A DNA stretch of 16,273 bases from a virus (IMGVR_UViG_2802429239_000001:1-16273); one strand, 5' to 3'; positions 793 to 16,273 are shown, counted from the first letter of the stretch. The notes: a model not told the origin generated them from the letters alone. Made by a program: numbers and translations.

Positions 793-801
793 AGCCCGGC
801 G
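781..801 (+). terminator. Hairpin between convergent genes, likely intrinsic terminator for the NTase gene
   Basis: Perfect 8-bp GC-rich inverted repeat CGCCGGGC / GCCCGGCG with 5-nt loop, followed on the plus strand by TGATTTATT. It lies between the NTase stop (790..792) and the stop of the minus-strand gene (806..808). Confidence 0.4.
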
Positions 802-805
802 TGAT

Positions 806-1261
806 TTATTGCTGGTATTGCCAACTGCTGACTAAAGCGTACAAGTGGTTTGGAGAATAGCGCCAGCTTTCCTTCAGTTGCAGAAATTCAGCACAAAATT
901 CACTGCAAAACAGGCGATCGCGCTGTTCTTTATTACCGGTAATAATTCCTAATGCTCCGCGCCAGTCATATTTCTTGCCATCATGTTTACGGAAAAAAGT
1001 TTCCACATCCTGAAGGCTGGCCTGGAGCGGCAGCATATCCCACTTATCCGCAGGTAACGGCATTATCTTTCCGCGTACACCGCGATCGCGCAGTGATGCA
1101 GAGTAACAAAGGTAACTCTTTTCACCATGCTTAACGGCTAATTCACAGTGGGAATAACTACCGCGTGTGATTTTACGGGTAAGCCAGTCAGCCAGTCGGG
1201 CAATACCAAGGTGTTCTGTTCGGCCCTTATAACAAGCGAGCCAGACAGTGGTTTTACTCAT
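806..1261 (-). CDS. Small protein with possible permuted papain-like (YiiX/YaeF-type) cysteine hydrolase fold; function uncertain
   Basis: 151-aa ORF whose start overlaps the stop of the upstream gene by 4 nt (translational coupling). A His-containing segment (SYSHCELAV) precedes a Cys motif (LFCSEFCAEF), the His-before-Cys order I recall for permuted papain-fold proteins. Family assignment is from memory only. Confidence 0.4.
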   Translation of the reverse strand: MSKTTVWLACYKGRTEHLGIARLADWLTRKITRGSYSHCELAVKHGEKSYLCYSASLRDRGVRGKIMPLPADKWDMLPLQASLQDVETFFRKHDGKKYDWRGALGIITGNKEQRDRLFCSEFCAEFLQLKESWRYSPNHLYALVSSWQYQQ

Positions 1262-1863
1262 GGTTGCCAGCCTGTGGAGTAATCGTAGTCGAGCACCGCC
1301 TGAATATCGTCCAGTGCTTTCACCGCCGCGATATGGCGCTGAGCGTTGGCGAACAGGCGCATATCGTGATCCATTGTTACCGATTCAAACTGAGCGGCGA
1401 TTTCGTTGGTTAACTCAATCAGACCGTTATTTTTAGTTTTCCACATTAAACCTGGAGGGATTTTTTTCTCCGCTCCCATTTTAGTGAGTGAAAGCTGTTG
1501 GATACGGCTGCTTGTATCACTGTGGAAGTGATGGTTGTTGATGATGATGTAATCTACCGTTATTTCATCACGTCGATTTTTTATTTCCTGTGTAACCTGT
1601 GCCTTGGTATTCTCAAGTGCAATGGTAAATAATGTTTTGTCATATACCCATTTATCATTCTCTAAGATGTAAAAATCACCCGGCGGTGGTGTGGTGATAA
1701 TTTTGAATGGGTCAAGACATATCCAGCAGATATTATCCTTTAATTTCCATTGTTCATCATTTACTGGTATTACCGAGTTCGGTAACACAACATTTAATAA
1801 AGAATCATCTATCCAGTCAATAACTTCAAAAGTTACTGGATGGTAATACGCATATCGTGCCAT
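1258..1863 (-). CDS. Putative tail fiber assembly/chaperone protein (positional call)
   Basis: 201-aa ORF starting 5 nt after the tail fiber stop, in the position occupied by P2 G / Mu U-type fiber chaperones. Visibly AT-rich compared with the rest of the tail cluster. No conserved motif recognised with confidence. Confidence 0.4.
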   Translation of the reverse strand: MARYAYYHPVTFEVIDWIDDSLLNVVLPNSVIPVNDEQWKLKDNICWICLDPFKIITTPPPGDFYILENDKWVYDKTLFTIALENTKAQVTQEIKNRRDEITVDYIIINNHHFHSDTSSRIQQLSLTKMGAEKKIPPGLMWKTKNNGLIELTNEIAAQFESVTMDHDMRLFANAQRHIAAVKALDDIQAVLDYDYSTGWQP

Positions 1864-1867
1864 ATTT

Positions 1868-3421
1868 TCACCATGATATTTTTACAAAGCCATCTGAGCC
1901 GCGTCCGCCGGAAAAAGATGCTGATGTTTGATTATTTGCTGCACTACCACCAGCACCACCGGCACCATAACCAACGGCATTACCTCCGTTAGAAAGGGCT
2001 AAACCAATCCCCCCTAGGCCATATAGTGAATTCATTCCATTCCCACCAGGAGCAGAGTGTTGGTCAACCATGGTATTCCCACTACCGTTTCCACCTGTTC
2101 CCCCGTAAGCTACGCTGTCAGCAAATGATGAGTTCCCGCCTTGCATGCCATCTGAGCCATGAACATTCCAAAGAATACCTCCAGTTGATCCCATCTTTGA
2201 TTCTAATTTTCCCCCTTGACCACCTACACCTCCCGCTCCGACAGTGACAGCGTAATTTGTTCCTGGAATGACTGTGACTATTGATAATTTTGTTTCTCCG
2301 CATTGACCGCCAAAACCCTGTGTACTATATGGAAAACCAGAGTTTCCTTTTGCGTATCCACCGCCACCGCCACCGCCACCGCCACCGAGCATTTCTATAA
2401 AAAGTAAGGACACCCCATCAGGAACAGTAAACGTTCCATTGGTGGTAAAGAACTGGATGTGAGAATTCGTTGACCTACTATATGCAGCACCAGCCTTATC
2501 ATACGCCGCTTTCACCGCACTCGGCGTAGCCGCCTCCGTCGTACTGTTGCTATCCGTCGCATTATTAAGCTTCACAATCCCTTTTTGCGACAGGGTGCCG
2601 TCTGGAACACCCGTAATCTGTCCCCATGGGTGAGTATGGTTTCCCGCAGCCTTACTATTCGCCAGGTCATACGCCGCCTTCACCGCGCTCGGTGTTGCCG
2701 CCTCTGTCGTGCTGGTGCTATCAATCGCGTTACTAAGCTTCACAATCCCTTTTTGCGTCAGCGTACCATCCGGAATATCAGTAATCTGACTCCAGGTATG
2801 ACGATGATTTCGTGCCTCAATCATCGCCGCTTTCACCGCTTTTGGCGTAGCCGCTTTGGTTTCGTCATCACTGTCAGTGGCATTACTTAACTGCGTAAAG
2901 CCTTTTTGCGATAACGTAGCATCAGGGTGATTAGTCGAACGTTCATGTTCATCCAGTTGCGAATCAACATAATCTCGTGTTGCCAGCACAATACTGGGGT
3001 CAACGGTGAGTGTTACCGCTGCCGTGTTGGAAACTTCCATAATGAGACGAATGCAAACTTGCTTACCGCTGCCGCCGGGTAATAGCGGTTTATACGACTC
3101 CGGGAATTTACCGATAGCAATGAGTTCACCGTCAGTATCAAAAACACCGACTTCACGTACATACCAGCCGCCGATATTTTCGGGCAGTACAAGTTCCGCA
3201 ATTAACCAGTTAGGATTATTGGGCGCAACTGTTAATGTATTTAAATCACCTCGCCAGACTTCATGACGTAATTTAGTTTGGCTGACGGTGGGTTCATAAT
3301 ATTGCCCTCCGCTGTCGCCAACAGCCATTTTTTGTAGATGAAGCTGTTTTTTATCCGCCAGAGCATTAGCAATTTTTGCCATCCCTCTGTCGGTGAGTAG
3401 AGTATAAAACTCATTATCCAT
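1868..3421 (-). CDS. Tail fiber protein (P2 gpH / Mu S-like N-terminus, tandem fiber repeats, Gly-rich C-terminal tip)
   Basis: 517 aa. N-terminal 150 aa follow the P2 H-type pattern (MAVGDSGG..., HEVWRGDLN..., IAELVLPENIGGWYVREVGVFDTDGELIA..., ESYKP..., ATRDYVD). Three degenerate ~55-aa repeats follow (TLSQKG[IF]VKL[SN]NA.DS...TEAATP.AVKAAYD). The C-terminal ~180 aa are extremely Gly-rich, including a 10-residue poly-Gly. Confidence 0.9.
   Translation of the reverse strand: MDNEFYTLLTDRGMAKIANALADKKQLHLQKMAVGDSGGQYYEPTVSQTKLRHEVWRGDLNTLTVAPNNPNWLIAELVLPENIGGWYVREVGVFDTDGELIAIGKFPESYKPLLPGGSGKQVCIRLIMEVSNTAAVTLTVDPSIVLATRDYVDSQLDEHERSTNHPDATLSQKGFTQLSNATDSDDETKAATPKAVKAAMIEARNHRHTWSQITDIPDGTLTQKGIVKLSNAIDSTSTTEAATPSAVKAAYDLANSKAAGNHTHPWGQITGVPDGTLSQKGIVKLNNATDSNSTTEAATPSAVKAAYDKAGAAYSRSTNSHIQFFTTNGTFTVPDGVSLLFIEMLGGGGGGGGGGYAKGNSGFPYSTQGFGGQCGETKLSIVTVIPGTNYAVTVGAGGVGGQGGKLESKMGSTGGILWNVHGSDGMQGGNSSFADSVAYGGTGGNGSGNTMVDQHSAPGGNGMNSLYGLGGIGLALSNGGNAVGYGAGGAGGSAANNQTSASFSGGRGSDGFVKISW
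2358..2387 (-). repeat. Perfect hexanucleotide tandem repeat (CCACCG)x5, encoding the poly-Gly run of the tail fiber
   Basis: Plus-strand CCACCG repeated 5 times without interruption; on the coding strand this reads GGTGGC/GGTGGC... giving GGGGGGGGGG. Confidence 0.85.
2464..2914 (-). repeat. Three degenerate tandem repeats (~170-180 bp each) inside the tail fiber gene
   Basis: Long near-identical DNA stretches recur, e.g. AAGCTTCACAATCCCTTTTTGCG and GCCGCCTTCACCGC.CTCGG.GT.GCCGCCTC.GTCGT; they correspond to the protein repeats. Boundaries are approximate. Confidence 0.7.
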
Positions 3422-3423
3422 AA

Positions 3424-4071
3424 TTACTCCGGGTAAATAGATGTAATTTCAAGGCTCCATTGCCCTGTTCCGTAATAGATTGATGTGTTTTGCTGTACTT
3501 CCCGTATCTGGAAAGGTAAAACCGTCGTCAGTTCACCACCATAAAGTGCACAGCCAATAACAGGAATAGCACTTTGGTTAATGATCCAGACAATTAATGC
3601 TTCCAGTTTTGAACGTGTGTTTTTATATTCATGAATGAGTTCTACCAGATTATTGAAAAGGTTTTCATCCATGCCTTTATCCACCAGCTCTATATCAACC
3701 TTAAAAAAATAAGCCTTCCCCCCATATTCAAACCATTCTGAAATAGTTCCTGGTAGCGAAAGTATTTCCAGCACCCGCCGTACCGCCCAAATCGTTCCTT
3801 TATATTTATGCAGCTCAATGGCTTGCTTAATTAACTCGCGCTTCTCCCGTTCATCAGTGGTAAATAACCAACCTTCCAGCCCCTGAACGTGAAATTGTTC
3901 TGCAAGGGCAGGTAATGCCGAAGCATCAACCAGGTCTACCAGATAAACCATCAACGCTGTCAGATCGAGTTGGGCAAAACGCTCGGCAGCGATATTTGCC
4001 AGAGTTGAAAAACGCTCATCGCTGGCAAGCGGCGGTGGCGGCAGCAATTTATCCATCGCTGACTCCGGCAA
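3424..4071 (-). CDS. Baseplate/tail protein, P2 gpI-like (Mu gp48-like)
   Basis: 215 aa. Motifs HKYKGTIWAVRRVLEILS and a C-terminal ...YPE parallel the P2 gpI pattern (HCHKGTIGAIRRVVEPLG ... YPG) as I recall it. Sits between the gpJ-like gene and the tail fiber, as in P2/Mu. Confidence 0.8.
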   Translation of the reverse strand: MPESAMDKLLPPPPLASDERFSTLANIAAERFAQLDLTALMVYLVDLVDASALPALAEQFHVQGLEGWLFTTDEREKRELIKQAIELHKYKGTIWAVRRVLEILSLPGTISEWFEYGGKAYFFKVDIELVDKGMDENLFNNLVELIHEYKNTRSKLEALIVWIINQSAIPVIGCALYGGELTTVLPFQIREVQQNTSIYYGTGQWSLEITSIYPE

Positions 4072-5164
4072 TCGTGACGTCTATCGCGGTGCATTCCGCC
4101 CACTCATGCGCCTGCAAAATACGTTTTGTAGGCATATTCAGCGCAACGTCATAGACACCATCGACTTGTAACACTTTGATTATCTGGTTTGGCACAATGT
4201 CCCGTCCCAGATGTTTCTGCCGCTGTTGCGTCCAGAGGCTAATCGCTTTACGCGCCGCAGCCAGCGTTGTCTCCTGATCGGCAGTGGTAAACAGTGTGAG
4301 CTGCGCACGGATTTCATACGGCACCCTAACGGCGCATTTCGCACTTACTTTGTCGGTCAGCGGACGTTTTTTCTCCTTGCTAACCTCCAGTTCAATTTGC
4401 GCGAGCAGTTCCACGCCCGGCAGACCATTCAGCGTTAGCGGGTAGATCTCCACGCAGCCTTCTGGCAATCCTTCGTCCGGCCCCAGTACCGCGACGTCAA
4501 TAATCGACTGGCTTACGGAAAGCGTATGAAAGCGGTAGGCACCATAGCTGCCCGCATTGCTGAAACTTTCCGGCGCCAGTTGGATCCGCTGGCGTAGTGC
4601 GTCATCACTCTCTTCACCGCAGCCGCCGGTTGAGGCCGTCAGGTTGGTCACGCTGATATCGTAATAACCAATCCTGTCAACAAGGGCGCTAATCTGTGCA
4701 GGCTGCCAGCCATTGCCCGCTTCGCCTGTTGCCAGACTGGTGGCGGGAACGGCGATATGCAAACTTCCCGCCGGAATCAGAACATCTTCATCGGTAGCAA
4801 ACATCACGCTGTCAGAGGCGCTGGCACGTGTTCCTTGTGGAATTAGAATGTTATTTCGATTCTTACTGGCTACCGAAAACAGCAACGTGGTTTTTGCCGG
4901 TTGTGCAGGTAAGCGGTGAACGCCCACCAGCTCACCTAAATAATCCAGCATTGGCGCGCGGGAATACGCGACCAGATTCTGTTTCGCCGCTTCCTGAATG
5001 GCGATGCGTACAAGGTTTTCACGATAGGCAAAAAGGTCAATCAGCAACCGCTCGGCCTGTGCCGGGTAGAGCTTTTTGCCGCTGGCATCTTCATACTGCG
5101 CAATCATCTCGCTGGTAATTTGCGCAGGATCGCGGTCAATAAAATCGGGTTCGGCTATCGCCAT
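4049..5164 (-). CDS. Baseplate assembly protein J (gpJ-like)
   Basis: 371 aa with gpJ-type segments (LRQRIQLAPESFSNAGSYGAYRFHTLSVSQ..., ...GRDIVPNQIIKVLQVDGVYDV...). Overlaps the gpW-like gene upstream and the gpI-like gene downstream. Confidence 0.85.
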   Translation of the reverse strand: MAIAEPDFIDRDPAQITSEMIAQYEDASGKKLYPAQAERLLIDLFAYRENLVRIAIQEAAKQNLVAYSRAPMLDYLGELVGVHRLPAQPAKTTLLFSVASKNRNNILIPQGTRASASDSVMFATDEDVLIPAGSLHIAVPATSLATGEAGNGWQPAQISALVDRIGYYDISVTNLTASTGGCGEESDDALRQRIQLAPESFSNAGSYGAYRFHTLSVSQSIIDVAVLGPDEGLPEGCVEIYPLTLNGLPGVELLAQIELEVSKEKKRPLTDKVSAKCAVRVPYEIRAQLTLFTTADQETTLAAARKAISLWTQQRQKHLGRDIVPNQIIKVLQVDGVYDVALNMPTKRILQAHEWAECTAIDVTIAGVSDG

Positions 5165-5514
5165 AACACCTCCGTTGAGTTGATTACGCCGTCAGCGGCG
5201 CGCCATTGCACACGTAACGTCAGATGTTCCCCGTCGATTACCGGTGTCACCTTCAGCAACCGGCAGCGCGGTTCCCACTGGCGGATGGCCTCTACCGACT
5301 CCCTTACCACATGCGGAATCGCCCGCTCGATGGGATAATCGATGTAGTGCCACAAGTTGCTGCCAAACAGCGGTCTGTGGGGATCACTGCCGCGCGGTGT
5401 GCGCAGAATGATGTGTATTGCCTGGTGAATATCATCCAGTCCGCAGACGTATTCTTCAGGCCGCTGCAAGGCTGGTTGCCAGTGCAGCGTAGAGGGGCGT
5501 GTTGTCGTGTTCAT
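5155..5514 (-). CDS. Baseplate wedge protein, gpW / gp25-like
   Basis: 119 aa; segment LDDIHQAIHIILRTPRGSDPHRPLFGSNLWHYIDYP matches the gpW/gp25 core (cf. P2 W LEHISQSIGDILRTPVGSRVMRRDYGSLLASMIDQP from memory). Confidence 0.8.
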   Translation of the reverse strand: MNTTTRPSTLHWQPALQRPEEYVCGLDDIHQAIHIILRTPRGSDPHRPLFGSNLWHYIDYPIERAIPHVVRESVEAIRQWEPRCRLLKVTPVIDGEHLTLRVQWRAADGVINSTEVLWR

Positions 5515-5575
5515 GAGGGTATTTTCGCCCTGAACAGGCGGCGGGGATATTAAAGCGATTTAAAAAACTGATTGA

Positions 5576-5607
5576 TTAAAAAGAGAAAACCCGCCATCAG
5601 GCGGGTT
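5576..5607 (-). terminator. Intrinsic-terminator-like hairpin plus U-tract between the gpV and gpW genes
   Basis: On the minus-strand transcript, just after the gpV stop (5613..5615): AACCCGCC-UGAU-GGCGGGUU (8-bp GC-rich stem, 4-nt loop) followed directly by UUCUCUUUUU. Confidence 0.55.
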
Positions 5608-5612
5608 AAACG

Positions 5613-6314
5613 TCAGTGTGAATGGTGGTTGGAGTTGCCACCGCTGTCCTGCAATGTGCCGCTGGCCTGAACGTTACCAATCACATTAACATTGCCAGTT
5701 ATCGTGGCGGCGTTGCCGATGCCTCCACTTCCTGCCATGCCACCAAGCCAGGTGAGTTTTTTCATCACCGTGACGTTGCCGGTAAAGGTGCTCATGGGCG
5801 CATCTACCGTCACTGCTGCCGCTTTAACATCGACCTTACTGGCTTCAATGCTGACATCGGTGGCTTTCACATCAACAGTGTCGGAAGTCACGGTGACGTG
5901 TTGGGCTTTAACCTCAACGTTGGGCGATGTCAGGCTGGTACGGTCAATAACCTCAATCACGATTTTTTCGATGCCACCATTAATCGTAAGCTGGTGGGTG
6001 CTGCGGTCATATTCAAACGCTGCGCCATCAGAAAACTGGACATAGCGTTTGTCGCGCGATGCTACTGGCGCGGTATCTACCGTTGAATATACTGCGCCCA
6101 GCACCACGCCATCTTCACCGTTATCATCCAGCAGAACTTCCACCTGTTCGCCCATATCCGGTAGCCAGTAATCCTTATTGTCCTGAGAATTGCGCTGCAG
6201 CACCGCAAGCCAGTTACTCTTCAGATTGTCACACTCTGGTAGCGTGACCCGCACCCGAACGCTGGTTTCGTCAATATCGCTGATAATCCCCGTTTGCCGG
6301 GTTACTCCTTTCAT
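5613..6314 (-). CDS. Baseplate spike/assembly protein V (gpV-like)
   Basis: 233 aa. N-terminal OB-like region with a GEQV motif and the FxDGAxxEYD segment parallels P2 gpV; a repetitive V.V.-rich beta-helix-like section follows; C-terminus ends in a His cluster (NHHSH). Confidence 0.85.
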   Translation of the reverse strand: MKGVTRQTGIISDIDETSVRVRVTLPECDNLKSNWLAVLQRNSQDNKDYWLPDMGEQVEVLLDDNGEDGVVLGAVYSTVDTAPVASRDKRYVQFSDGAAFEYDRSTHQLTINGGIEKIVIEVIDRTSLTSPNVEVKAQHVTVTSDTVDVKATDVSIEASKVDVKAAAVTVDAPMSTFTGNVTVMKKLTWLGGMAGSGGIGNAATITGNVNVIGNVQASGTLQDSGGNSNHHSH

Positions 6315-6323
6315 ATTGCCTCC

Positions 6324-7364
6324 TTACTGGCTGGTCGCTGGCCCGCGTGAAACGTCGATTTCAGTGGTATAGCCGCTGCGCACAAAACTGTGAGTAGATT
6401 TATCAATCAGCCACTGACCGGAAAGCACACCAAAATCGGTTAGCTCGATTTTATTGCCTGCCGTCAGTTCCGGGCAGCCCATCATCCTGAGCGTTCCGGT
6501 TTGTTGATATTCGTTGTGGCTGTCGAGCGCGGCGTTGGCCTTTGCCTGTGCCGCGCCAACGTCCGGCGCCCGACTGTTCAGTTTCAGCGTGTCGGCACTG
6601 GTGCCGACTCCACGGGCAGACGGCTTTTGCTGGCTGTCGTGAGTGTAGATAACCAGTTCTTTTTTCTTACTATTTTGATGCTGTACGGTGGCGTTTTTGT
6701 AGATGCGGTTAATGGTATCTTTGAAGGTGAAATGCGAAACGTCTTTGCGGTCGATCTTTTTCACCGGCGCCAGGCAGCGCAGCGTGGGTAAATGCGAAAA
6801 AATCAGTTCTTTGGTGGTCACCTTTACCGCATAGCCATATTCGCTGGCCAGGCGCTTGAGAAATCCGACATCGGTTTCGCCGTACTGTGTCACCCGGTCA
6901 ATCGTCAGCGGCTCGATTTTGCCCACCAGCGTCAGGCCGTGAGTTTGCGCGATACGGCTGGCGATGGCTGAAAGCGTTGTCTCTTCAAAGCCCTGACTGT
7001 TACGGGTGCGCAGCGCCTGATTGACGGAAGTGGCGATGCCATCAATATTTACCGTGGAAGGTGGTGCTGAAATGTCAATTTTATCAATGATATATTGACC
7101 ACAATCGAGCAGTTTTTCCCCCTGATAACCCATATGTAGCGCCAGCGTATCGCCTTTGCCGGGATACCACTCTTTTATCCAGCGTCCATCGGTGTCATCC
7201 AGTGTGATCGCGATGGTATCCGACTCGTTTTTAATACTGTCCTGGTAACTGATGCTGGTGACATAAGGCGTGATGTCATAAGTGATATCTTTATGCCCAT
7301 ACCACAGGGTAAAAATGGGCGCGAGCGTGGCAAAGACGCCGCCAGTTACGCTTATCTCAGCCAT
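6324..7364 (-). CDS. Tail/baseplate hub protein, gpD-like (Mu gp44-like)
   Basis: 346 aa, in the gpD position immediately upstream of the gpV gene; overall pattern (ITLDDTDG..., tail ...GQWLIDKSTHSF...GYTTEIDV) is consistent with the phage late control gene D family. Confidence 0.8.
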   Translation of the reverse strand: MAEISVTGGVFATLAPIFTLWYGHKDITYDITPYVTSISYQDSIKNESDTIAITLDDTDGRWIKEWYPGKGDTLALHMGYQGEKLLDCGQYIIDKIDISAPPSTVNIDGIATSVNQALRTRNSQGFEETTLSAIASRIAQTHGLTLVGKIEPLTIDRVTQYGETDVGFLKRLASEYGYAVKVTTKELIFSHLPTLRCLAPVKKIDRKDVSHFTFKDTINRIYKNATVQHQNSKKKELVIYTHDSQQKPSARGVGTSADTLKLNSRAPDVGAAQAKANAALDSHNEYQQTGTLRMMGCPELTAGNKIELTDFGVLSGQWLIDKSTHSFVRSGYTTEIDVSRGPATSQ

Positions 7365-7561
7365 GGTGGGATCTCCGATACGGTCTTGTTGACGGTAATG
7401 ACCGGAATAATGAGCTGAATACCGGCAGGCAGTACCGGGTAAATGGCGACATGTGGATTGGCGGCGATAATGCGTTCATAAGCCAGTGCATCACCGTAGT
7501 AATGCCATGCCAGGTTATCCCAGCGTTCGCCGTCGGTGGTGATATGTTCAAGGTATCGCAT
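7352..7561 (-). CDS. Tail protein X (gpX-like, LysM-like fold)
   Basis: 69 aa; GERWDNLAWHYYGDALAYERIIAANPHVAIYPVLPAGIQLIIP parallels P2 gpX (GDTLDAICVRYYGRTEGVVETVLAANPGLAELGAVLPHGTAVELP, from memory). Confidence 0.75.
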   Translation of the reverse strand: MRYLEHITTDGERWDNLAWHYYGDALAYERIIAANPHVAIYPVLPAGIQLIIPVITVNKTVSEIPPWLR

Positions 7562-10874: not shown

Positions 10875-10965
10875 AATTGTTTCTCTTTAAATATTGATAA
10901 TGGCCCGCTGGTTATTTTTCTAAAAAAAAGGGGCAGGGAAGAAATAAACCTGACGGGCTTGGGAA

Positions 10966-10990
10966 ACTCGCAGACATCAGGTCTGCGAGT
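10966..10990 (-). other. Perfect 10-bp inverted repeat (stem-loop) in the chaperone-tape measure intergenic gap
   Basis: ACTCGCAGAC-ATCAG-GTCTGCGAGT on the plus strand (10-bp stem, 5-nt loop). Not followed by a clean U-tract on either strand. Confidence 0.6.
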
Positions 10991-11064
10991 CATATTCGAT
11001 TTTTATTTGGGCGTTGGCTTCATCCAGCCAGTTGCTAAAGTCATCGACGGTAAGGGCGTCTATC

Positions 11065-11382
11065 TCACTGGGCGGAAAGCGAAACCATCTCGCCAGTAAC
11101 GCCATCGCTTGCCATAACAGTGGCGGATTCTGTAGCCACGCTAAGCATGGATTGAAATCGTTTCTGCAATGCCTGGTAATCCAGCAAATCCATTTCAGCT
11201 AAATCTTCTGGCACCAGTCCGGTCATTGCAGCCATTAGCGGTTCATCCCATTCTTCTGGTTTTTCGCTGATCCGGCGCGCGTTGCGCATATCTTTTACTT
11301 TCAGGCGACGTAATTGCAGAGTGTTAATTACGTCTCCCGCCGCTGAAGTAAACGGGAACTGTAAGGTATAATGTTCTTTCAT
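11065..11382 (-). CDS. Tail assembly chaperone (P2 gpE / Mu gp41-like)
   Basis: 105-aa acidic protein encoded between the tube and tape measure genes, the conserved position of the gpG/gpE-type chaperone. Good RBS context. Confidence 0.65.
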   Translation of the reverse strand: MKEHYTLQFPFTSAAGDVINTLQLRRLKVKDMRNARRISEKPEEWDEPLMAAMTGLVPEDLAEMDLLDYQALQKRFQSMLSVATESATVMASDGVTGEMVSLSAQ

Positions 11383-11409
11383 TTTGTATCCTTATTGGTC
11401 ATGCGGAAA

Positions 11410-11427
11410 TCGGGGCCGTAGCCCCGA
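11410..11427 (-). other. GC-rich stem-loop directly after the tail tube gene
   Basis: TCGGGGC-CGTA-GCCCCGA (7-bp stem, 4-nt loop) in the 50-bp gap between the tube stop and the chaperone start; followed on the minus strand by only a short UUUCC. Confidence 0.45.
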
Positions 11428-11432
11428 ATAAC

Positions 11433-11957
11433 TTAGCCACCGATGTTATTGCGATAGGTACTTAATTGATCCACGCCGTTAACGCGGAAAATATTCGCCA
11501 GGTAATCCAGTTCCAGCAGCGTTTCACCATCGACCACCTGTTTAATATAGGTACAACCAAAGGCGCTGCTGAATTCCGGGTTTTCATTCTGTTTAAATGT
11601 TCCCAATGGATTCTTTTTAAACATGACAGTCAAATGAGTGACTAACGCTAATTGATTCGCTTTCCCCTGGGAGTTATAGCAATCAATACTGGAGCGGCAC
11701 TGTAATGCTACCGCCTGCCACGGGTTTGCCGTTTTACGCATGACGTCCTGATAAAAGGAGTTCCATTTAATTTCCCCTTCCAGTTTATCGAAACCTGCCG
11801 GGAGTTCGATTTTGCCGACCATGCCCAGTGCTTTATGCTCCTGCATAATTAAACTGACATCCGGTAATTTAATTTCGGTTGCACGACCTAAAAGGTTATT
11901 ACCATCGAGATAAATATTGGCATTGGTAATACGGTTAATTTGAATTTTTCCAGCCAT
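11433..11957 (-). CDS. Tail tube protein (P2 FII / Mu M-like)
   Basis: 174 aa. N-terminal pattern and the C-terminal NGVDQLSTYRNNIGG parallel the P2 FII C-terminus (..NGVDRLEQHRRNIGL, from memory). Start overlaps the sheath stop by 1 nt. Confidence 0.85.
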   Translation of the reverse strand: MAGKIQINRITNANIYLDGNNLLGRATEIKLPDVSLIMQEHKALGMVGKIELPAGFDKLEGEIKWNSFYQDVMRKTANPWQAVALQCRSSIDCYNSQGKANQLALVTHLTVMFKKNPLGTFKQNENPEFSSAFGCTYIKQVVDGETLLELDYLANIFRVNGVDQLSTYRNNIGG

Positions 11958-13387
11958 TAGCTATTGCTCTCCAGAGAGACTAAATATTCAGAGGTAATTT
12001 CAGTTTCAAACGTCAGACGTTCCAGCGGCGGTGGCGGGGTGAATTTATAGCTCAGCAATAAATGCCCGGCACTGAGTTCGGTCGGTGAATTTCGCGCCGG
12101 ATCGTACCAGCACTCAAAGCCAAGCAGTGCGCCGTCGGCAATCAGCTTACGGCCCCAGGTATTTACCGACTCGGTCAGGGCATCAATTAGCGCCTGATTA
12201 ATCGGCATATCGATATACTGCTGGCTGAAATAACGGATCGACTCGTTAATCACATCACCCGTGCGGCGAACGTTTTCAAAGTTACGCATATGGGTCACGG
12301 TTGGCCATGCCGCAGTGCGGTTGCCCCATAAACGCAGACCAGAGCCGTAACTATTGAAAACTGTGGTAATGCCGTTTTCGTTGAGCTGATTCACTTCACT
12401 TTGCGGGTCATCAACCATTGCGGAAAGTGAACGTTCGATACCGATAATGCCCTGAATTTCCTGGTTTGAGTTGCTCCACCAGAAACCTTTCTCCAGGTCT
12501 ACTTTGGCACGCAGTCCGGCAGCGCGTGAAGATAGCGGTTCGAGAACTTCTTGGTTGGTTGAGCCGTCATAAACTTTGACGTGCGGATAGCACAAACGCG
12601 CACGGTCAGAACTGGTGTTGAAGTTGATTGCGCCTTTCGAGCCGCGACCAGCCAGTACCTGCTGGAATGTAGTACCGATTGGGGCGTCAATGTAGGCGAT
12701 AGCACCGAGTTTTTCCGCCTGAGCAATCAGTTCGGTGGTGACCGATTTTTGCGTACAGAAAACGGGAGCAAGCAGGATTTTGGCGTAGAAACCATACAGG
12801 TTATAGGTATCCTGTAGCAGTTTCATCCCCGTGCGATCGCCTGCGGTATTAACGGCGCCAATAATATCGGCTGCGGTAACTTTTGTTGGATCGGCCCATG
12901 AGTAATAGGCGCAAACTTTCGCTCCGGCAGGGATCTCAGTTTCTGCACGAGTGATTATTCCTGTTTGTTCATCAACATGAAACGCTGCGCTGCTATACGT
13001 AGTGGCTGATGTTGAAGAGGGTTTCAGGACGACATTGCGCACCGCACGATGAGCCAGTTTTGCCTGGTTGTTGGAATCAAAAGTGATACTCTCATTGCTG
13101 ATGCTGGAGCCATGTTTTGCCGGATCCAGTACGTTAATCACCACCACCGTACCGGCGCCGTGGTCATAAATCGCCTTCAGCGCCTGCGGGATAGTAAAGT
13201 TAGCCTGAGTCGAGCCAAACTGCGCGGCATCGCTTTCAGAAAGGCACAATGTTGGTTTGTTTACCGGACCGCATGGTGCACTACCGATTAAAGCGATTAC
13301 AGCGGATTTTACCGCTTTAACCGGGCGCGGACCGGTTTCAATTTCAATGGTTTCTACACCGTGCAGGTAATTAGCTGCCATGTACAA
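11957..13387 (-). CDS. Contractile tail sheath protein
   Basis: 476 aa, immediately upstream of the tube gene; size, position and N-terminal region (..GVETIEIETGPRPVKAVKSAVIALIGSAP..) are typical of Mu L / P2 FI-type sheath proteins. Confidence 0.85.
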   Translation of the reverse strand: MYMAANYLHGVETIEIETGPRPVKAVKSAVIALIGSAPCGPVNKPTLCLSESDAAQFGSTQANFTIPQALKAIYDHGAGTVVVINVLDPAKHGSSISNESITFDSNNQAKLAHRAVRNVVLKPSSTSATTYSSAAFHVDEQTGIITRAETEIPAGAKVCAYYSWADPTKVTAADIIGAVNTAGDRTGMKLLQDTYNLYGFYAKILLAPVFCTQKSVTTELIAQAEKLGAIAYIDAPIGTTFQQVLAGRGSKGAINFNTSSDRARLCYPHVKVYDGSTNQEVLEPLSSRAAGLRAKVDLEKGFWWSNSNQEIQGIIGIERSLSAMVDDPQSEVNQLNENGITTVFNSYGSGLRLWGNRTAAWPTVTHMRNFENVRRTGDVINESIRYFSQQYIDMPINQALIDALTESVNTWGRKLIADGALLGFECWYDPARNSPTELSAGHLLLSYKFTPPPPLERLTFETEITSEYLVSLESNS

Positions 13388-13568
13388 TTTCCTCTCCGTT
13401 ATTTTGTTCTTCCTGAGTGATGACAGGAGTCAGGTGATTGCGGGCAATCATGGTCATAACCCACTCGTTTTCTTCTGGCAGATCAATTTCACTGTTCGGC
13501 CACAATAAGATTTCTTGTCCGTCGGCAAGGGTGACGCCGCTTGCCGGGCCGTTGTAGATGTATTTCAT
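13371..13568 (-). CDS. Small conserved tail-operon protein, function unknown
   Basis: 65-aa ORF coupled by overlap to both neighbours, in the position of the small protein that precedes the sheath gene in Mu-like tail operons. Confidence 0.45.
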   Translation of the reverse strand: MKYIYNGPASGVTLADGQEILLWPNSEIDLPEENEWVMTMIARNHLTPVITQEEQNNGEEIVHGS

Positions 13569-14020
13569 TCAGTTTCCTCGTAATTAACTTCAGTAAGCAG
13601 GGTAAGGTCCGTGCTTTCCCGTTTTGCGATAAACAGCGATCTGGTCGCCATTTCCATGATGTAGCGGCAGAAACCACCGCTCTCGCCTGCATTGATTTCT
13701 GTTTCAAGCCAAAGAAGACGCTCGCAATCAGGAAGCTGGATCCCCCCCAATGCGCTGCGTATGCGATCCAGTGCGTTTAACGCGCCACAATTTTTGCCAA
13801 CAATAACGGTGGCAGTTAAACGGAGCGTTTGCTGTTGCACGAGGGCATCACTGCTTTCAGGCATGGCAAATAGAGAACCGCTATAATTAATAATCACTGT
13901 AACTTGCTGCGTCTGCGGAATATATTTATTGGCATCAACCGATGAAATAAATACGTCCATTTCGGGATTCTGTTCACGTAATCTGGTCACAACAGAATTA
14001 ATTACAGATAAAATTTCCAT
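13565..14020 (-). CDS. Putative tail completion/terminator-type protein, first gene of the tail operon (positional call)
   Basis: 151-aa ORF with an AAGGAA RBS about 9 nt upstream of the ATG; 4-nt overlap with the next gene. Contains a C7/G7 homopolymer at 13742..13748. Confidence 0.4.
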   Translation of the reverse strand: MEILSVINSVVTRLREQNPEMDVFISSVDANKYIPQTQQVTVIINYSGSLFAMPESSDALVQQQTLRLTATVIVGKNCGALNALDRIRSALGGIQLPDCERLLWLETEINAGESGGFCRYIMEMATRSLFIAKRESTDLTLLTEVNYEETE

Positions 14021-14126
14021 ATAGGGTGTTCCTTAATTACTGCTCACTTCGTTATCGTTGAAATGTATTCTGAAGCAGTGAAGGTGAAGAATCTTTTAAT
14101 GTGATTTAGAGAAAAAATTGAATGGC

Positions 14127-14162
14127 TATAAAAATCCCCACACTTACGTAAAGGTGGGGATG
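14127..14162 (-). terminator. Intrinsic-terminator-like hairpin after the lysis cassette
   Basis: On the minus-strand transcript, a few nt after the stop of the 104-aa gene: AUCCCCAC-(12-nt loop)-GUGGGGAU followed by UUUUUAUAG. Coordinates approximate to 1-2 nt. Confidence 0.5.
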
Positions 14163-14165
14163 TAT

Positions 14166-14480
14166 TTAATAGCTGCCACGTTGTAATAGCTCTATTTTGC
14201 TATATAAGGCATCCAGCTTTGCTTCTAATACTGCCTGGCCACGAAGATAATCTTCTCTGCGGACATAATGCAGCGGAAGCTCGGCACGAAATTCGAGAAA
14301 TTCTCTTTCCAGTTTCGACCAGCTTGTTTCTGATTCCCGGCGCGCGTTTTCCAGAGATTCAAAACGCTCATTAAGTCTTTTTTCAATTTGCGCTAACAGC
14401 AATTTTCCGGCAGCAAACATTAATCCAACGAAGGAAAGCATAAGGGAGATCACTTCCCAAAAATCGATACTGAGTTTCAT
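14166..14480 (-). CDS. Membrane-anchored coiled-coil protein, probable lysis accessory (i-spanin-like or releasin-like)
   Basis: 104 aa with one N-terminal transmembrane helix (VISLMLSFVGLMFAAGKLLLA) followed by a charged helical region; strong RBS (AGAGGGG); directly downstream of the transglycosylase gene. Confidence 0.5.
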   Translation of the reverse strand: MKLSIDFWEVISLMLSFVGLMFAAGKLLLAQIEKRLNERFESLENARRESETSWSKLEREFLEFRAELPLHYVRREDYLRGQAVLEAKLDALYSKIELLQRGSY

Positions 14481-14492
14481 CGGCCCCTCTGA

Positions 14493-15098
14493 TTAGTGAA
14501 GACAGCTTGCCTGCCCCCAGAGTAAGTAGCGGGCGGCATGTTGATAGAGGATCATCTTCGGATAGTGACGATTTTCTCGCCAGTTTGCGGCACTACGCCC
14601 GGCGTTGACGTGCTCAACATGACCAAACCAGATGGTGGCATCTAACCCTTTGGATGCGGCCAGTTTTTTATCCCGATTAACCCATCCCTGACCACCGTTA
14701 TAGGCGCTTAGGGTAAACGCCATACGCTGGCAGCCATTTTTCGCCGAGATGTTTTTCCACAAATGCTGGTCATATTGCACCAATGCGCGAATCGCCCAGG
14801 TTGGGTTATAGGGCTTGTTTTCACGTAGCTGTGGATACAACTGGCTTATCCATGTCGCTGTGGCAGGCATAAATTGCGCCATACCCTGTGCGCCGACGGG
14901 GGAACGCGCCATTGGCTGCCAGGCTGATTCCTGGTGCAACTGCCCGGCGAAGTCTGCCACCGGGGCGTTCAGTCCCCAGACTTCTCGTGCAGTTCGAATC
15001 AGTTCGTTTCGCCATGCCAGAGATGCTCGCGGCGGTTCAGATGCGTTAAGCGGGAAGAACGCGAACAGAGTAATTAGCGCGAGAAATTTTACCTGCAT
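14493..15098 (-). CDS. Soluble lytic transglycosylase (SLT domain) with signal peptide; probable endolysin
   Basis: SLT-type motifs ESAW, GAQGMAQFMP and SAYNGG. The track ORF extends to 15197, but the internal Met (MQVKFLALITLFAFFPLNA) starts a signal peptide and has an AGGA RBS, so the likely start is 15098. It lies 2 nt downstream of the holin-like gene stop. Confidence 0.8.
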   Translation of the reverse strand: MQVKFLALITLFAFFPLNASEPPRASLAWRNELIRTAREVWGLNAPVADFAGQLHQESAWQPMARSPVGAQGMAQFMPATATWISQLYPQLRENKPYNPTWAIRALVQYDQHLWKNISAKNGCQRMAFTLSAYNGGQGWVNRDKKLAASKGLDATIWFGHVEHVNAGRSAANWRENRHYPKMILYQHAARYLLWGQASCLH

Positions 15099-15100
15099 CA

Positions 15101-15388
15101 CTAAAGTCCTAACGCGACGGAAAGGCAGACGGCTGCAACGATGATAGCCCGACGAATCATTGCCGCCGCGCAGCATCGCGCCTCTTCCCAGGGGCAAAAT
15201 GAGTCAGGCCGCGCCCAGGGAAACAGACTGCGATCGAGCCAGTATCCCAGCACAGCGGCGAGCGAAACCAGACTTAGTTTATAAATGACAACCGGGATCT
15301 GTGCGGAAGATGTCCAGCCGATCGCGACAAACAGCGCGACGGAAGCGACCAGCCAGCCGGAAAGACGGGGAAAAGTGACTTTTTTCAT
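15101..15388 (-). CDS. Small multi-pass membrane protein, putative holin
   Basis: 95 aa with 2-3 predicted hydrophobic helices; strong RBS (AGGAGA 7 nt upstream); first gene of the lysis cassette directly upstream of the transglycosylase. Confidence 0.5.
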   Translation of the reverse strand: MKKVTFPRLSGWLVASVALFVAIGWTSSAQIPVVIYKLSLVSLAAVLGYWLDRSLFPWARPDSFCPWEEARCCAAAMIRRAIIVAAVCLSVALGL

Positions 15389-15684
15389 ACGATATCTCCT
15401 GATAAGTGAGCGTTTAGTGTTGCCAGATCCCTCCAGTGAAGAATGAAAAAAGCTTTAATAAATAACTTTAAAAAATAGATCCTCTATAAATGAACATGCT
15501 TGCTAATAAATCCACCCATTAATAAAAGAGCAAAAGGTGTCCTGGAGAATAAGCGCGTCATTATGCAGGGAAAAGAGGATGGTGAATCGTAGGAATAGCC
15601 CATAGTCATTTGATTTTTAAAGTTTGTTTAAGAAAGTCAGCGACTGTGAGGGAAACGATCTTTTTACACTACAGGTAAAAATAA

Positions 15685-15704
15685 TACTGTATGCACATAC
15701 AGTA
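15685..15704. promoter_or_regulatory. LexA operator (SOS box)
   Basis: TACTGTATGCACATACAGTA is a perfect palindrome with CTGT-N8-ACAG, differing from the 20-mer consensus TACTGTATATATATACAGTA only in the central positions. Confidence 0.7.
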
Positions 15705-15713
15705 TCGTGTAAA
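15686..15713 (-). promoter_or_regulatory. Candidate leftward sigma70 promoter overlapping the LexA box
   Basis: On the minus strand: TTTACA (-35), 16-nt spacer, TACAGT (-10, inside the LexA box). Would transcribe toward the lysis and tail genes. Confidence 0.4.
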
Positions 15714-15725
15714 ATGATACTCCAG

Positions 15726-15756
15726 TTGACAAGAAACATAACGCAAACAATATATT
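15726..15756 (+). promoter_or_regulatory. Candidate rightward sigma70 promoter for the Mor/C-like activator gene
   Basis: Consensus -35 TTGACA, then 18-19 nt spacer to ATATAT/TATATT; about 20 bp downstream of the LexA box and about 170 bp upstream of the activator ATG. Confidence 0.4.
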
Positions 15757-15925
15757 TATTTTGTGAATTTATGACGTTCATTGATATTAAAAATTTATAT
15801 TTTTGGTGATTGTTTATTTGTTTGTTGAATGTATTGAGTAGCAGTAATGACAACTGCTTAGCGTATATCCGTGGTTTTACACGCATCGGGTCTTATACAG
15901 GATGCAAGATATATGGAGATGAAAA

Positions 15926-16273
15926 ATGATACGAAAATCAAAAGAGATGGCCCGGACACCGGAGATCATTAACGACCTGGCGTTTCATGCATCGCAAGTT
16001 CTGATTGAGAGCATCAATCTCGACAGTTCATCGGCGGAAAATGTGGGCTTTGCCATTGCCGACCGAATGATGCGTAACTGGGGTGGGCAAAGCATTTATT
16101 TCCCGAAAGGGATCTCCGGACGGGCGTCGGAGCGTGACTACCAAATCTATAGCGAGTGCGATGGTCGCAACTACGCCGAATTAGCGAAGAAATATAATCT
16201 GACGTTGCAATGGATTTATAAGATAGTGAAACGCGTACATGCGGAAAAGCAACAGCGCCGTAGTAATTCGTAA
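15926..16273 (+). CDS. Mor/C-family transcriptional activator (phage Mu middle/late activator family)
   Basis: 115 aa; GGQSIYFPKG...RDYQIYSECDGRNYAELAKKYNLTLQWIYKIVKR aligns with the Mu Mor C-terminal region (GGGQVYIPRG...RDLRIWNDFNGRNVSELTTRYGVTFNTVYKAIRR, from memory). GGAG RBS 8 nt upstream. Confidence 0.8.
   Translation: MIRKSKEMARTPEIINDLAFHASQVLIESINLDSSSAENVGFAIADRMMRNWGGQSIYFPKGISGRASERDYQIYSECDGRNYAELAKKYNLTLQWIYKIVKRVHAEKQQRRSNS

What the first reader, a model, noticed from the sequence alone, without database searches (positions are those of the whole stretch)
806..16273. Complete contractile tail plus lysis cassette with no head genes in the window: candidate SOS-inducible Mu/P2-type tailocin
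All parts needed for a contractile tail particle are present in one coupled array: tail-completion-like proteins, sheath, tube, chaperone, tape measure, gpU/X/D hub proteins, gpV spike, gpW/J/I baseplate, fiber and chaperone. A holin/transglycosylase/spanin-like cassette sits directly upstream and a Mor/C-type activator with a LexA box lies beside it. The lysis genes abut the first tail gene with only about 145 bp and a terminator between them, whereas in Mu the head genes sit between lysis and tail. No capsid, portal, terminase, protease, integrase or transposase is visible. That is the architecture of R-type tailocins; the Mor-type regulator would make it Mu-derived and distinct from P2-derived pyocins.
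Basis: partly seen in the sequence, partly recalled or inferred. Interest (0 to 1): 0.8.

Follow-up and report, generated by a model that had tools for sequence, protein, structure and literature searches.

The report
Headless Mu-type phage-tail bacteriocin cluster
This is a complete contractile phage-tail gene set with its own lysis genes and a DNA-damage switch but no head genes; it sits between ordinary chromosomal genes in Escherichia, Salmonella and relatives and has been kept intact by selection, so it is most likely an overlooked tail-shaped bacteriocin related to carotovoricin, not a dead prophage.

Summary
Window 806-16273 encodes one divergent Mor-family activator plus 20 co-oriented genes on the minus strand. 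These are holin, a signal-peptide lytic transglycosylase, a small membrane protein, Gp37/gp38, sheath, tube, chaperone, tape measure, gpU/X/D/V/W/J/I, fibre, fibre chaperone and one moron-like gene.

No head, packaging, transposase or integrase gene lies in the window. None lies in the source contig either, where yjbD/rluF lie to the left and lysC/pgi to the right.

Gene by gene it matches Bcepmuvirus phages (BcepMu, PhiKM; sheath 71-75% identical). Four parts are missing: the early/transposition region, Rz/Rz1, gp26 and the whole head module.

The same headless cluster sits at lysC in E. coli (196 of 5,426 complete genomes), Salmonella (where it is called the 'Def4' remnant), Superficieibacter, Phytobacter and Dryocola. 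All genes are intact, with median dN/dS about 0.07 and the fibre evolving fastest.

A near-consensus LexA box is conserved beside mor. Three candidate late promoters share a TAAA-N4-WTTW box.

The third lysis gene is a BcepMu gp25 homologue, not a spanin. Carotovoricin is a separately derived sister.

It is a new member of a known kind. Particle production and killing are untested.

The parts
15926..16273 (+). Mor-family late transcription activator (115 aa), transcribed divergently from the rest of the cluster
   Evidence: PF08765 E 7e-38. It is 49% identical to BcepMu gp01. This exact protein occurs in 11,719 collection blocks and is followed by lysC in all six places shown.
15685..15704 (.). 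LexA (SOS) box TACTGTATGCACATACAGTA. The conserved TGTAAAATG next to it gives a -10 (TAAAAT, 15710-15715) pointing towards mor, or a -35 (TTTACA) for a minus-strand promoter
   Evidence: It is the only exact CTGT-N8-ACAG in the window, with 0 expected by chance for the longer pattern. It is conserved in the mor-holin spacer of all 8 lysC-linked loci, while the surrounding sequence diverges.
15416..15473 (-). Putative Mor-dependent promoter of the lysis operon: -10 AACACT 15416-15421, box TAAAGCTTTTTT 15446-15457, and a second dyad at 15459-15473
   Evidence: Conserved block in 8 loci. The 15-mer motif hits here. When anchored on the -10, the box lines up with the other two promoters. Function is inferred.
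15101..15388 (-). Holin (95 aa)
   Evidence: PF13272 E 1e-27; phrog_1528 holin; 66% identical to BcepMu gp21 over the aligned stretch (residues 6-64).
14493..15098 (-). Lytic transglycosylase endolysin (201 aa) with an N-terminal signal-peptide-like segment
   Evidence: PF01464 SLT E 3e-15; phrog_669 endolysin; 52% identical to BcepMu gp22. The signal peptide is read from the sequence (MQVKFLALITLFAFFPLNA).
14166..14480 (-). 104-aa membrane and coiled-coil protein, homologue of BcepMu gp25 (not a spanin)
   Evidence: 46% identical to BcepMu gp25 and 50% to the PhiKM equivalent; phrog_462. It is kept in all headless derivatives. It is 100% identical at the protein level in E. coli.
14127..14161 (-). 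Intrinsic terminator closing the lysis operon
   Evidence: Hairpin of -15.5 kcal/mol, z -3.9, followed by UUUUUAU. Conserved in 6 of 7 aligned loci.
14067..14108 (-). Putative Mor-dependent promoter of the tail operon: box TAAATCACATTAAAA 14094-14108, -10 CAGAAT 14067-14072
   Evidence: Exact motif hit. The box and an nAnAAT -10 are conserved in 7 loci. Register shown. Function is inferred.
13565..14020 (-). Gp37-family protein, first tail-side gene (tail completion or neck)
   Evidence: PF09646 E 6e-33. Homologue of BcepMu gp37, the gene just after the head module.
13371..13568 (-). 65-aa gp38-like protein
   Evidence: 45% identical to BcepMu gp38; phrog_895.
11957..13387 (-). Tail sheath
   Evidence: PF04984 and PF17482. 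71% identical to BcepMu gp39 and 75% to PhiKM.
11433..11957 (-). Tail tube
   Evidence: PF04985 E 5e-56. dN/dS 0.009 against E. coli.
11410..11427 (-). Conserved GC-rich hairpin after the tube gene (possible attenuator or RNA stabiliser)
   Evidence: Conserved in 7 loci. Fold.
10977..11382 (-). gpE-type tail assembly chaperone (11065-11382) plus an overlapping 42-aa ORF in the +1 frame (10977-11105)
   Evidence: PF10109 E 7e-19. Frame analysis. The 42-aa gene is called in public assemblies.
8514..10874 (-). Tape measure protein (786 aa)
   Evidence: PF10145. 91% identical to E. coli and 69% to Salmonella.
5613..8514 (-). gpU (7561-8514), gpX (7352-7561), gpD hub (6324-7364) and gpV spike (5613-6314)
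   Evidence: PF06995, PF05489, PF05954 and PF04717.
5515..5612 (-). Spacer holding a terminator (5588-5607) and a putative Mor-dependent promoter: box TAAATCGCTTTAATA 5548-5562, -10 GAAAAT 5521-5526
   Evidence: Hairpin of -15.3 kcal/mol, z -4.8. Exact motif hit. The box lies at the same distance upstream of gpW in the carotovoricin loci. Salmonella carries gtrABC inserted in this spacer.
3424..5514 (-). Baseplate wedge: gpW (5155-5514), gpJ (4049-5164), gpI (3424-4071)
   Evidence: PF04965, PF04865 and PF09684.
1868..3421 (-). Tail fibre (517 aa): collar N-domain, three fibre repeats, glycine-rich C-terminal domain
   Evidence: PF12571, PF03406 x3 and PF21722. It is among the most divergent genes of the cluster (59-78% aa identity, dN/dS 0.33). 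A different fibre tip is present in L087.
1258..1863 (-). DUF4376 tail-fibre assembly protein
   Evidence: PF14301; phrog_1807 and phrog_2837 tail families. It diverges together with the fibre.
806..1261 (-). 151-aa conserved protein of unknown role, last gene of the cluster (moron-like)
   Evidence: phrog_1128 E 1e-58. Orthologous to STM4198. dN/dS 0.056. No BcepMu or PhiKM counterpart was found.

Best explanation
What it is (shown). The region is a domesticated, headless derivative of a BcepMu-like (Bcepmuvirus) transposable prophage. It is fixed between yjbD/RlaP and lysC. It has lost the transposition and early region, the Rz/Rz1 spanins, gp26 and all head and packaging genes. It has kept every contractile-tail gene, the holin, the transglycosylase, the gp25-like protein and the Mor activator.

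How it most likely works (inferred).
1. In undamaged cells LexA sits on the box at 15685-15704 and keeps the promoter or promoters that overlap it shut.
2. DNA damage leads to RecA-stimulated LexA cleavage, and mor is then transcribed.
3. Mor binds the TAAA-N4-WTTW boxes, centred about 41 bp upstream of three predicted start points, and switches on three units: holin-SLT-gp25; Gp37 to gpV; gpW to the fibre, its chaperone and the 151-aa gene.
4. Tails assemble without heads. The holin and the exported transglycosylase then lyse the producer cell and release the particles.
5. The particles bind related bacteria through the variable fibre and kill by contraction and membrane puncture, as other R-type tailocins do.
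For: Anatomy. All tail, lysis and regulator families are present. There is one-to-one collinearity with BcepMu and PhiKM.

Headlessness. No head or early remnants are in the window. Host genes flank the element in the 100%-identical source contig and in E. coli and Salmonella.

Selection. All 20 genes are intact in three lineages. Median dN/dS is 0.07 (range 0-0.40). dS is of the same order as in flanking lysC and pgi. The tail core is uninterrupted in 191 of the 196 complete E. coli genomes that carry it. The same site is occupied in 5 genera, which form one clade in a 5-protein tree.

Specificity module. Fibre and chaperone are among the fastest-evolving genes, and the fibre tip differs within the source lineage.

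Regulation. The LexA box is conserved across genera. The shared promoter box occurs at 3 sites against 0.34 expected, sits in identical register at all three, and recurs upstream of gpW and the chaperone gene in carotovoricin loci. Terminators separate the units.

Precedent. Carotovoricin, with a 75-76% identical sheath, is a proven SOS-inducible tailocin of the same phage ancestry (PMC13195805, PMC13566846).
Against: There is no experimental evidence for particles, killing or induction in any member of the lysC-linked clade. The Salmonella literature treats it as a remnant (PMC5322425).

No spanin is present, so how the outer membrane is breached is unexplained.

Only 3.6% of complete E. coli genomes carry it, so it is dispensable and often absent.

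The direction of the LexA-controlled promoter is unresolved. The -35 of the mor-ward candidate is poor, and a minus-strand TTTACA-16-TACAGT promoter also fits.

The promoter boxes were partly found by eye in A/T-rich DNA. The predicted gpW promoter implies a leaderless mRNA.

dS against Salmonella is saturated.
Confidence: 0.7

Rival explanations
1. It is an inert prophage remnant (the 'Def4' view): leftover tail and lysis genes that have not yet decayed and do nothing for the cell.
For: It is catalogued as a remnant in Salmonella (PMC5322425, PMC3591323). It is absent from 96% of complete E. coli genomes. It has lost its spanins.
Against: No gene is broken in three lineages that differ by dS 0.2-2. 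dN/dS is well below 1 for all genes. The promoter, LexA box and terminators are conserved across 5 genera. The tail core is uninterrupted in 191 of 196 carrier genomes. Neutral decay over such distances would leave frameshifts and deletions.
Confidence: 0.1
2. It is maintained for a use other than killing competitors. Examples are SOS-triggered altruistic lysis or vesicle release driven by the holin and transglycosylase, or supplying tails and fibres to another phage or satellite in the same cell.
For: The lysis operon is a separate unit with its own terminator. The LexA box is closest to it. A maltocin endolysin drives DNA-damage vesiculation in Stenotrophomonas (title and abstract of PMC13393414). 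Complete BcepMu-like prophages are common in Enterobacterales.
Against: Lysis alone would not explain strong purifying selection on 16 tail genes or the faster evolution of the fibre. No head-only partner is known. Complete BcepMu-like prophages bring their own tails.
Confidence: 0.15
3. It is the tail half of a still-functional phage whose head and replication genes lie elsewhere in the chromosome.
For: None was found. The only consideration is that the window alone cannot exclude distant genes.
Against: About 10 kb on each side are housekeeping genes in the source contig and in the orthologues. No transposase, phage ends or packaging genes are present. The site is identical in 5 genera, which is unlike a randomly transposing Mu-type phage.
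Confidence: 0.03

Closest known systems
Salmonella enterica 'Def4' prophage remnant (STM4198-STM4219 of LT2; 'BTP6' position in D23580)
   Same: It sits at the same chromosomal site (yjbD ... lysC) with the same 21 genes in the same order and orientation. Amino-acid identity is 59-96%. It has the same LexA box and the same promoter blocks.
   Different: Salmonella carries the gtrABC O-antigen glucosylation operon inserted in the gpV-gpW spacer, and its fibre tip differs. It is described only as a remnant. No tailocin function was reported in the papers found.
Carotovoricin Er of Pectobacterium (R-type 'Mu-type' tailocin)
   Same: It has the same phage ancestry (sheath 75-76%, tube 76% identical). 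It has the same holin - lytic transglycosylase - tail order. It is headless and SOS-inducible. The same promoter box lies upstream of gpW (PMC13195805, PMC13566846).
   Different: It sits at a different locus (tolC_2-ybiB). It keeps Rz and gp26, so its head-deletion junction is different. No Mor gene and no LexA box lie within 10 kb of it. It forms a separate clade in the tail-protein tree, so the domestication was independent.
Bcepmuvirus phages (Burkholderia phage BcepMu, Escherichia phage PhiKM, Klebsiella phage KP12)
   Same: Every gene but one (the 151-aa last gene) has a counterpart in the same order: Mor, holin, SLT endolysin, gp25, gp37, gp38, then sheath through to gpI and the fibre.
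   Different: The phages also carry transposase A/B, a repressor, GemA, gam, Rz/Rz1, gp26, terminase, portal, MuF/G, protease and capsid. All of these are missing here.
R-type pyocins of Pseudomonas aeruginosa (P2/PS17-type tailocins)
   Same: Same logic: a headless contractile tail plus a lysis cassette, switched on after DNA damage through a dedicated activator. The tail gene families overlap (gpU/X/D/V/W/J/I).
   Different: The ancestry differs: P2-like phages fall in the below-60% identity band for the sheath. The regulators differ as well. From my own knowledge, pyocins use PrtN/PrtR, where this cluster has Mor and a LexA box. The endolysin type also differs.

Membership tests
R-type tailocin (phage tail-like bacteriocin) | Complete set of contractile-tail structural and assembly genes | tested here: met
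   Sheath, tube, chaperone, tape measure, gpU/X/D/V/W/J/I, fibre and fibre chaperone are all intact.
R-type tailocin (phage tail-like bacteriocin) | No head, packaging, replication or integration genes in or next to the cluster | tested here: met
   No hits in the window. Host genes lie on both sides in the source contig and in the orthologues.
R-type tailocin (phage tail-like bacteriocin) | Own lysis cassette for release | tested here: inconclusive
   A holin and an exported transglycosylase are present. The Rz/Rz1 spanins are absent and no substitute was identified.
R-type tailocin (phage tail-like bacteriocin) | Maintained by selection rather than decaying | tested here: met
   Median dN/dS is 0.07 and no gene is disrupted in three lineages. 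The cluster is conserved at one site in 5 genera.
R-type tailocin (phage tail-like bacteriocin) | Headless particles are produced and kill sensitive bacteria | not testable with these tools
   This needs induction, EM and spot assays.
SOS (LexA) regulon member | LexA box overlapping a promoter, with induction by DNA damage | tested here: inconclusive
   A box matching 17 of 20 consensus positions is conserved across genera and overlaps promoter-like hexamers. Binding and induction were not tested, and the promoter direction is unresolved.
Carotovoricin lineage (same domestication event) | Same locus, same deletion junction and monophyly with the Pectobacterium clusters | tested here: not met
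   The locus differs, the junction differs (no Rz, no gp26) and the clade is separate. It is homologous by phage ancestry only.
Salmonella Def4 orthologue group | Synteny at yjbD-lysC and gene-by-gene orthology | tested here: met
Functional Bcepmuvirus prophage | Transposase A/B, repressor, and head and packaging genes | tested here: not met
   None were detected.
Extracellular contractile injection system (Afp/PVC type) | Afp/PVC-type gene set with an AAA+ ATPase and toxin cargo | tested here: not met
   Pfam shows only P2/BcepMu-type tail families, no ATPase and no effector.

The most novel reading that the evidence does not exclude
E. coli-group bacteria, Salmonella and several other Enterobacteriaceae share an ancient, mostly vertically kept, still-functional R-type bacteriocin that has been filed for twenty years as the 'defective prophage Def4'. 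It would be wired directly to LexA through a captured Mor activator. It would release its particles without spanins, perhaps with the help of the gp25-like membrane protein.
Probability: 0.5. Interest if true: 0.6.

Novelty: new member of a known kind. Interest (0 to 1): 0.5.

Why it matters
If the particles are made and kill, two of the most studied bacteria would carry a native, uncharacterised tailocin whose fibre varies between lineages. The Salmonella fibre gene STM4200 is already used as a Typhimurium-specific PCR target (PMC6201931).

That bears on strain competition in the gut. It would offer an enterobacterial chassis for engineered tailocins. It would also give a clean case of how a transposable phage is reduced step by step to a host-controlled weapon: a Lelliottia intermediate still carries the transposase, and carotovoricin provides an independent parallel.

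The simple circuit, one LexA box, one activator and three promoters, is easy to test.

Tried and rejected
Literature.
- The E. coli ST131 'tailocin' paper (PMC9205054) describes a P2-like full prophage at another site, not this locus.
- All ten literature searches found no functional study of this locus.
- Kosakonicin (PMC6629978) is a headless P2-like cluster in Kosakonia.
- The Bobay et al. 2014 domestication paper is not held in the library.

Sequence searches.
- Megablast against phages found no true phage near-match, only a Salmonella chromosome contig and short unannotated fragments.
- The scan of species-representative genomes did not return the source organism. The source contig was found instead by exact-protein look-ups.
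- Most of the 1,635 E. coli 'matches' to the whole window are only the flanking RlaP gene.
- Rfam, tRNA and repeat scans gave nothing relevant. The only notable repeats are the fibre repeats.

Ideas dropped.
- The spanin idea was rejected.
- The 89-aa ORF over the LexA box was rejected as spurious.
- A -1 frameshift product of the chaperone gene was rejected: the -1 frame is closed and the open extension lies in the +1 frame.


Full report
1. What is in the window

All large ORFs from 806 to 15388 lie on the minus strand and are tightly packed. One gene, 15926-16273, is transcribed the other way.

Pfam assigns them as follows, in transcription order:
- Regulator and lysis: a Mor-family activator, a 2/3-TM holin and an SLT lytic transglycosylase.
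- Tail: Gp37, sheath, tube, a gpE-type chaperone and a tape measure.
- Hub and baseplate: gpU, gpX, gpD, gpV, gpW, gpJ and gpI.
- Fibre module: a collar/repeat/glycine-rich fibre and a DUF4376 fibre-assembly protein.

Three small genes without a Pfam family match PHROG families. They are the 104-aa membrane protein, a 65-aa protein and the last gene of 151 aa.

The gene at 1-792 is an RlaP nucleotidyltransferase. It occurs in about 1,600 E. coli genomes, most of which lack the cluster, so it is not part of the element.

2. Checking the details of the finding

- The spacer between the lysis genes and Gp37 is 145 bp. It contains a hairpin plus U-run (-15.5 kcal/mol, z -3.9).
- The LexA box TACTGTATGCACATACAGTA at 15685-15704 matches 17 of 20 positions of the E. 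coli consensus as I know it. It is the only exact CTGT-N8-ACAG in the window, and the longer pattern is expected zero times by chance.
- Head, packaging, transposition and Rz proteins of BcepMu and PhiKM give only noise in the window (best E 0.4).
- One point is wrong. The third lysis gene is not spanin-like. It is the homologue of BcepMu gp25, the gene that follows Rz/Rz1 in the phage. Rz/Rz1 themselves are missing, and no lipobox ORF is embedded.

3. Is it really headless?

Exact-protein look-ups recovered the source contig, GCA_026239195.1 JAEHAR010000001.1. L085 is 100% identical to window 1-11261, and L088 is 100% identical to 3565-16273.
- Left of the window lie yjbD, rluF, ccdA, pepE, yjbB, metH and iclR.
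- Right of mor, after 54 nt, lie lysC, pgi and yjbE-H.

The same holds for a 99.5% identical relative (L083), for E. coli PSJ-42 and for Salmonella Infantis.

4. Ancestry

The sheath is 71% identical to BcepMu gp39 and 75% to Escherichia phage PhiKM, both Bcepmuvirus. All but one of the window's genes have a counterpart in those phages, in the same order.

In BcepMu the order runs Mor, early and transposition genes, holin, SLT, Rz/Rz1, gp25, gp26, then terminase, portal, MuF/G, protease, capsid, gp35 and gp36, then gp37, gp38, sheath and so on to the fibre. The cluster is that genome minus three blocks:
- gp02-gp20, replaced by a 537-bp regulatory spacer;
- Rz/Rz1;
- gp26-gp36.

The precise parent type is a BcepMu-like transposable phage.

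5. Distribution and selection

A scan of one genome per species with the sheath protein, followed by a marker panel, sorted the loci into four classes.
- Class A is linked to lysC and reads Mor | holin SLT gp25 | Gp37 ... fibre. It occurs in Escherichia, Salmonella, Superficieibacter (2 species), Phytobacter and Dryocola.
- Class B is the carotovoricin type in Pectobacterium and Samsonia. It reads holin SLT Rz gp25 gp26 | Gp37 ..., with no Mor within 10 kb.
- Class C is headless but still carries the transposase. It occurs in Lelliottia and Brenneria.
- Class D comprises many complete prophages.

In a neighbour-joining tree of five concatenated tail proteins, class A is one clade with the Lelliottia element as sister. 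Carotovoricin is a separate clade. Heads were therefore lost at least twice.

The tail core is in 196 of 5,426 complete E. coli genomes at 91.6-93.6% identity, and it is uninterrupted in 191 of them.

The source lineage is not typical E. coli. Its flanking host DNA is about 94.7% identical to E. coli.

Nei-Gojobori estimates were made for all 20 cluster genes against E. coli and Salmonella.
- No gene is disrupted.
- Median dN/dS is 0.07, with a range of 0 to 0.40.
- dS is of the same order as in the neighbouring lysC and pgi genes.
- Fibre, fibre chaperone and Gp37 evolve fastest.
- dS against Salmonella is saturated, so those ratios are rough.

A close relative of the source (L087) carries a different fibre tip and chaperone. 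Strong constraint on the machine together with a fast-changing receptor-binding module is the pattern expected of a tailocin in use. It is not the pattern of a decaying remnant.

6. Regulation (inferred from sequence)

In the mor-holin spacer of all eight class A loci the LexA box is conserved together with an adjacent TGTAAAATG, while most of the spacer diverges. The carotovoricin loci have no such box.

The adjacent motif can be read in two ways. It gives a -10 (TAAAAT) pointing to mor with the box over the -35 region, or a -35 (TTTACA) for a minus-strand promoter whose -10 lies in the box. I cannot decide between them. Either way LexA would hold the cluster off.

Three operon starts carry a shared element. 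The 15-mer TAAATCRCWTTAAWA hits upstream of holin, Gp37 and gpW, giving 4 hits at 3 sites against 0.34 expected. When the three regions are anchored on their conserved -10 hexamers (AACACT, CAGAAT, GAAAAT), a TAAA-N4-WTTW box falls in exactly the same register. That places it about 41 bp upstream of the predicted starts. As far as I recall, Mu Mor and C bind at about that position.

The same box sits at a fixed distance upstream of gpW and of the chaperone gene in carotovoricin and Brenneria loci. Terminators after the gp25-like gene and after gpV separate the units. This agrees with the four transcription units reported for carotovoricin (Yamada 2006, as cited in PMC13195805).

From memory, carotovoricin and pectin lyase are induced through RdgA and a Mor-like RdgB (Liu et al. 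1994, cited in PMC13566846). If that is right, the Mor step is shared, and here LexA takes the place of the RdgA repressor.

7. Comparison with what is known

- The Salmonella orthologue is the 'Def4' remnant (PMC5322425, PMC3591323). It differs by a gtrABC insertion exactly in the gpV-gpW spacer.
- Carotovoricin is the nearest characterised tailocin and is already called 'Mu-type' (PMC13566846).
- I found no paper that assigns a tailocin function to the lysC-linked cluster in Escherichia or Salmonella.

8. Verdict

Four corrections apply: the parent is BcepMu-type, there is no spanin, it is not a new class, and it is already catalogued as a remnant.

The functional claim rests on conservation and on analogy with carotovoricin. 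I put it at about 0.7.

It is a new member of a known kind, and interest is moderate. The element sits in very well-studied bacteria, looks ancient and has a simple, testable circuit, but the concept itself is established.

Noticed in passing
window 1-792 (+): An RlaP-type nucleotidyltransferase gene flanks the cluster. It is present in about 1,600 complete E. coli genomes, most of which lack the tail cluster. In E. coli PSJ-42 it sits next to a slipin-family gene. It is not part of the element.
   Followed up: partly
window 14166-14480 (-): The 104-aa protein with an N-terminal TM segment and a coiled coil is the BcepMu gp25 homologue. It is kept in every headless derivative, although the Rz/Rz1 genes next to it were lost in the lysC-linked clade. 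Its role in lysis or release is unknown, and how the outer membrane is breached is unexplained.
   Followed up: partly
L002 14967-17802 (Salmonella), equivalent to window 5515-5612: Salmonella carries the gtrABC O-antigen glucosylation operon inserted exactly in the gpV-gpW spacer. In the window that spacer holds a terminator and a putative late promoter.
   Followed up: partly
L007 2476-10011 (Lelliottia wanjuensis): This element is sister to the lysC-linked clade. It has the same junction without spanins or heads, but it still carries Mor, TnpB, TnpA and early regulators. It looks like an intermediate stage of domestication.
   Followed up: partly
L087 7720-10004 versus window 1258-3421: A genome of the same lineage (97-99% identical elsewhere) has a different fibre C-terminus (526 aa, Collar domain) and a Caudo_TAP-type chaperone. 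This indicates cassette exchange of the receptor-binding module.
   Followed up: partly
L083 10403-11752 versus L001 32628-33977 (lysC): lysC, the gene next to mor, is only 86-87% identical between the source lineage and E. coli. The remaining 8.5 kb of flank is about 94.7% identical. This is a local pocket of high divergence next to the element.
   Followed up: no
window 10977-11105 (-): A 42-aa ORF in the +1 frame overlaps the 3' end of the chaperone gene, and the -1 frame is closed. If a chaperone-extension product is made, as in other tailed phages, it would need a +1 or -2 shift or a separate start.
   Followed up: partly
window 11410-11427 (-): A GC-rich hairpin (UUCGGGGCUACGGCCCCGA) directly after the tube gene is conserved in all seven lysC-linked loci aligned. 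It may be an attenuator or an mRNA-stabilising element that sets the ratio of sheath and tube to minor proteins.
   Followed up: partly
window 5514-5526 (-): The conserved -10-like GAAAAT lies 7 nt upstream of the gpW ATG, and no Shine-Dalgarno sequence is visible. The predicted transcript for the baseplate and fibre operon would therefore be leaderless.
   Followed up: no
window 15611-15660: The block TTGATTTTTAAAGTTTGTTTAA... in the mor-holin spacer is conserved in Escherichia, Salmonella and Phytobacter but not in Superficieibacter. It contains a TAAA-N5-TTTAA dyad. Its role is unknown.
   Followed up: no
window 806-1261 (-): The last gene (151 aa, phrog_1128 'moron' family, orthologue of STM4198) is strongly conserved (dN/dS 0.056). 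It has no counterpart in BcepMu or PhiKM and no known function.
   Followed up: partly
window 15617-15886 (-): An 89-aa ORF spans the LexA box in the A/T-rich spacer. It has no family match and is not annotated in E. coli. It is probably not a gene.
   Followed up: partly
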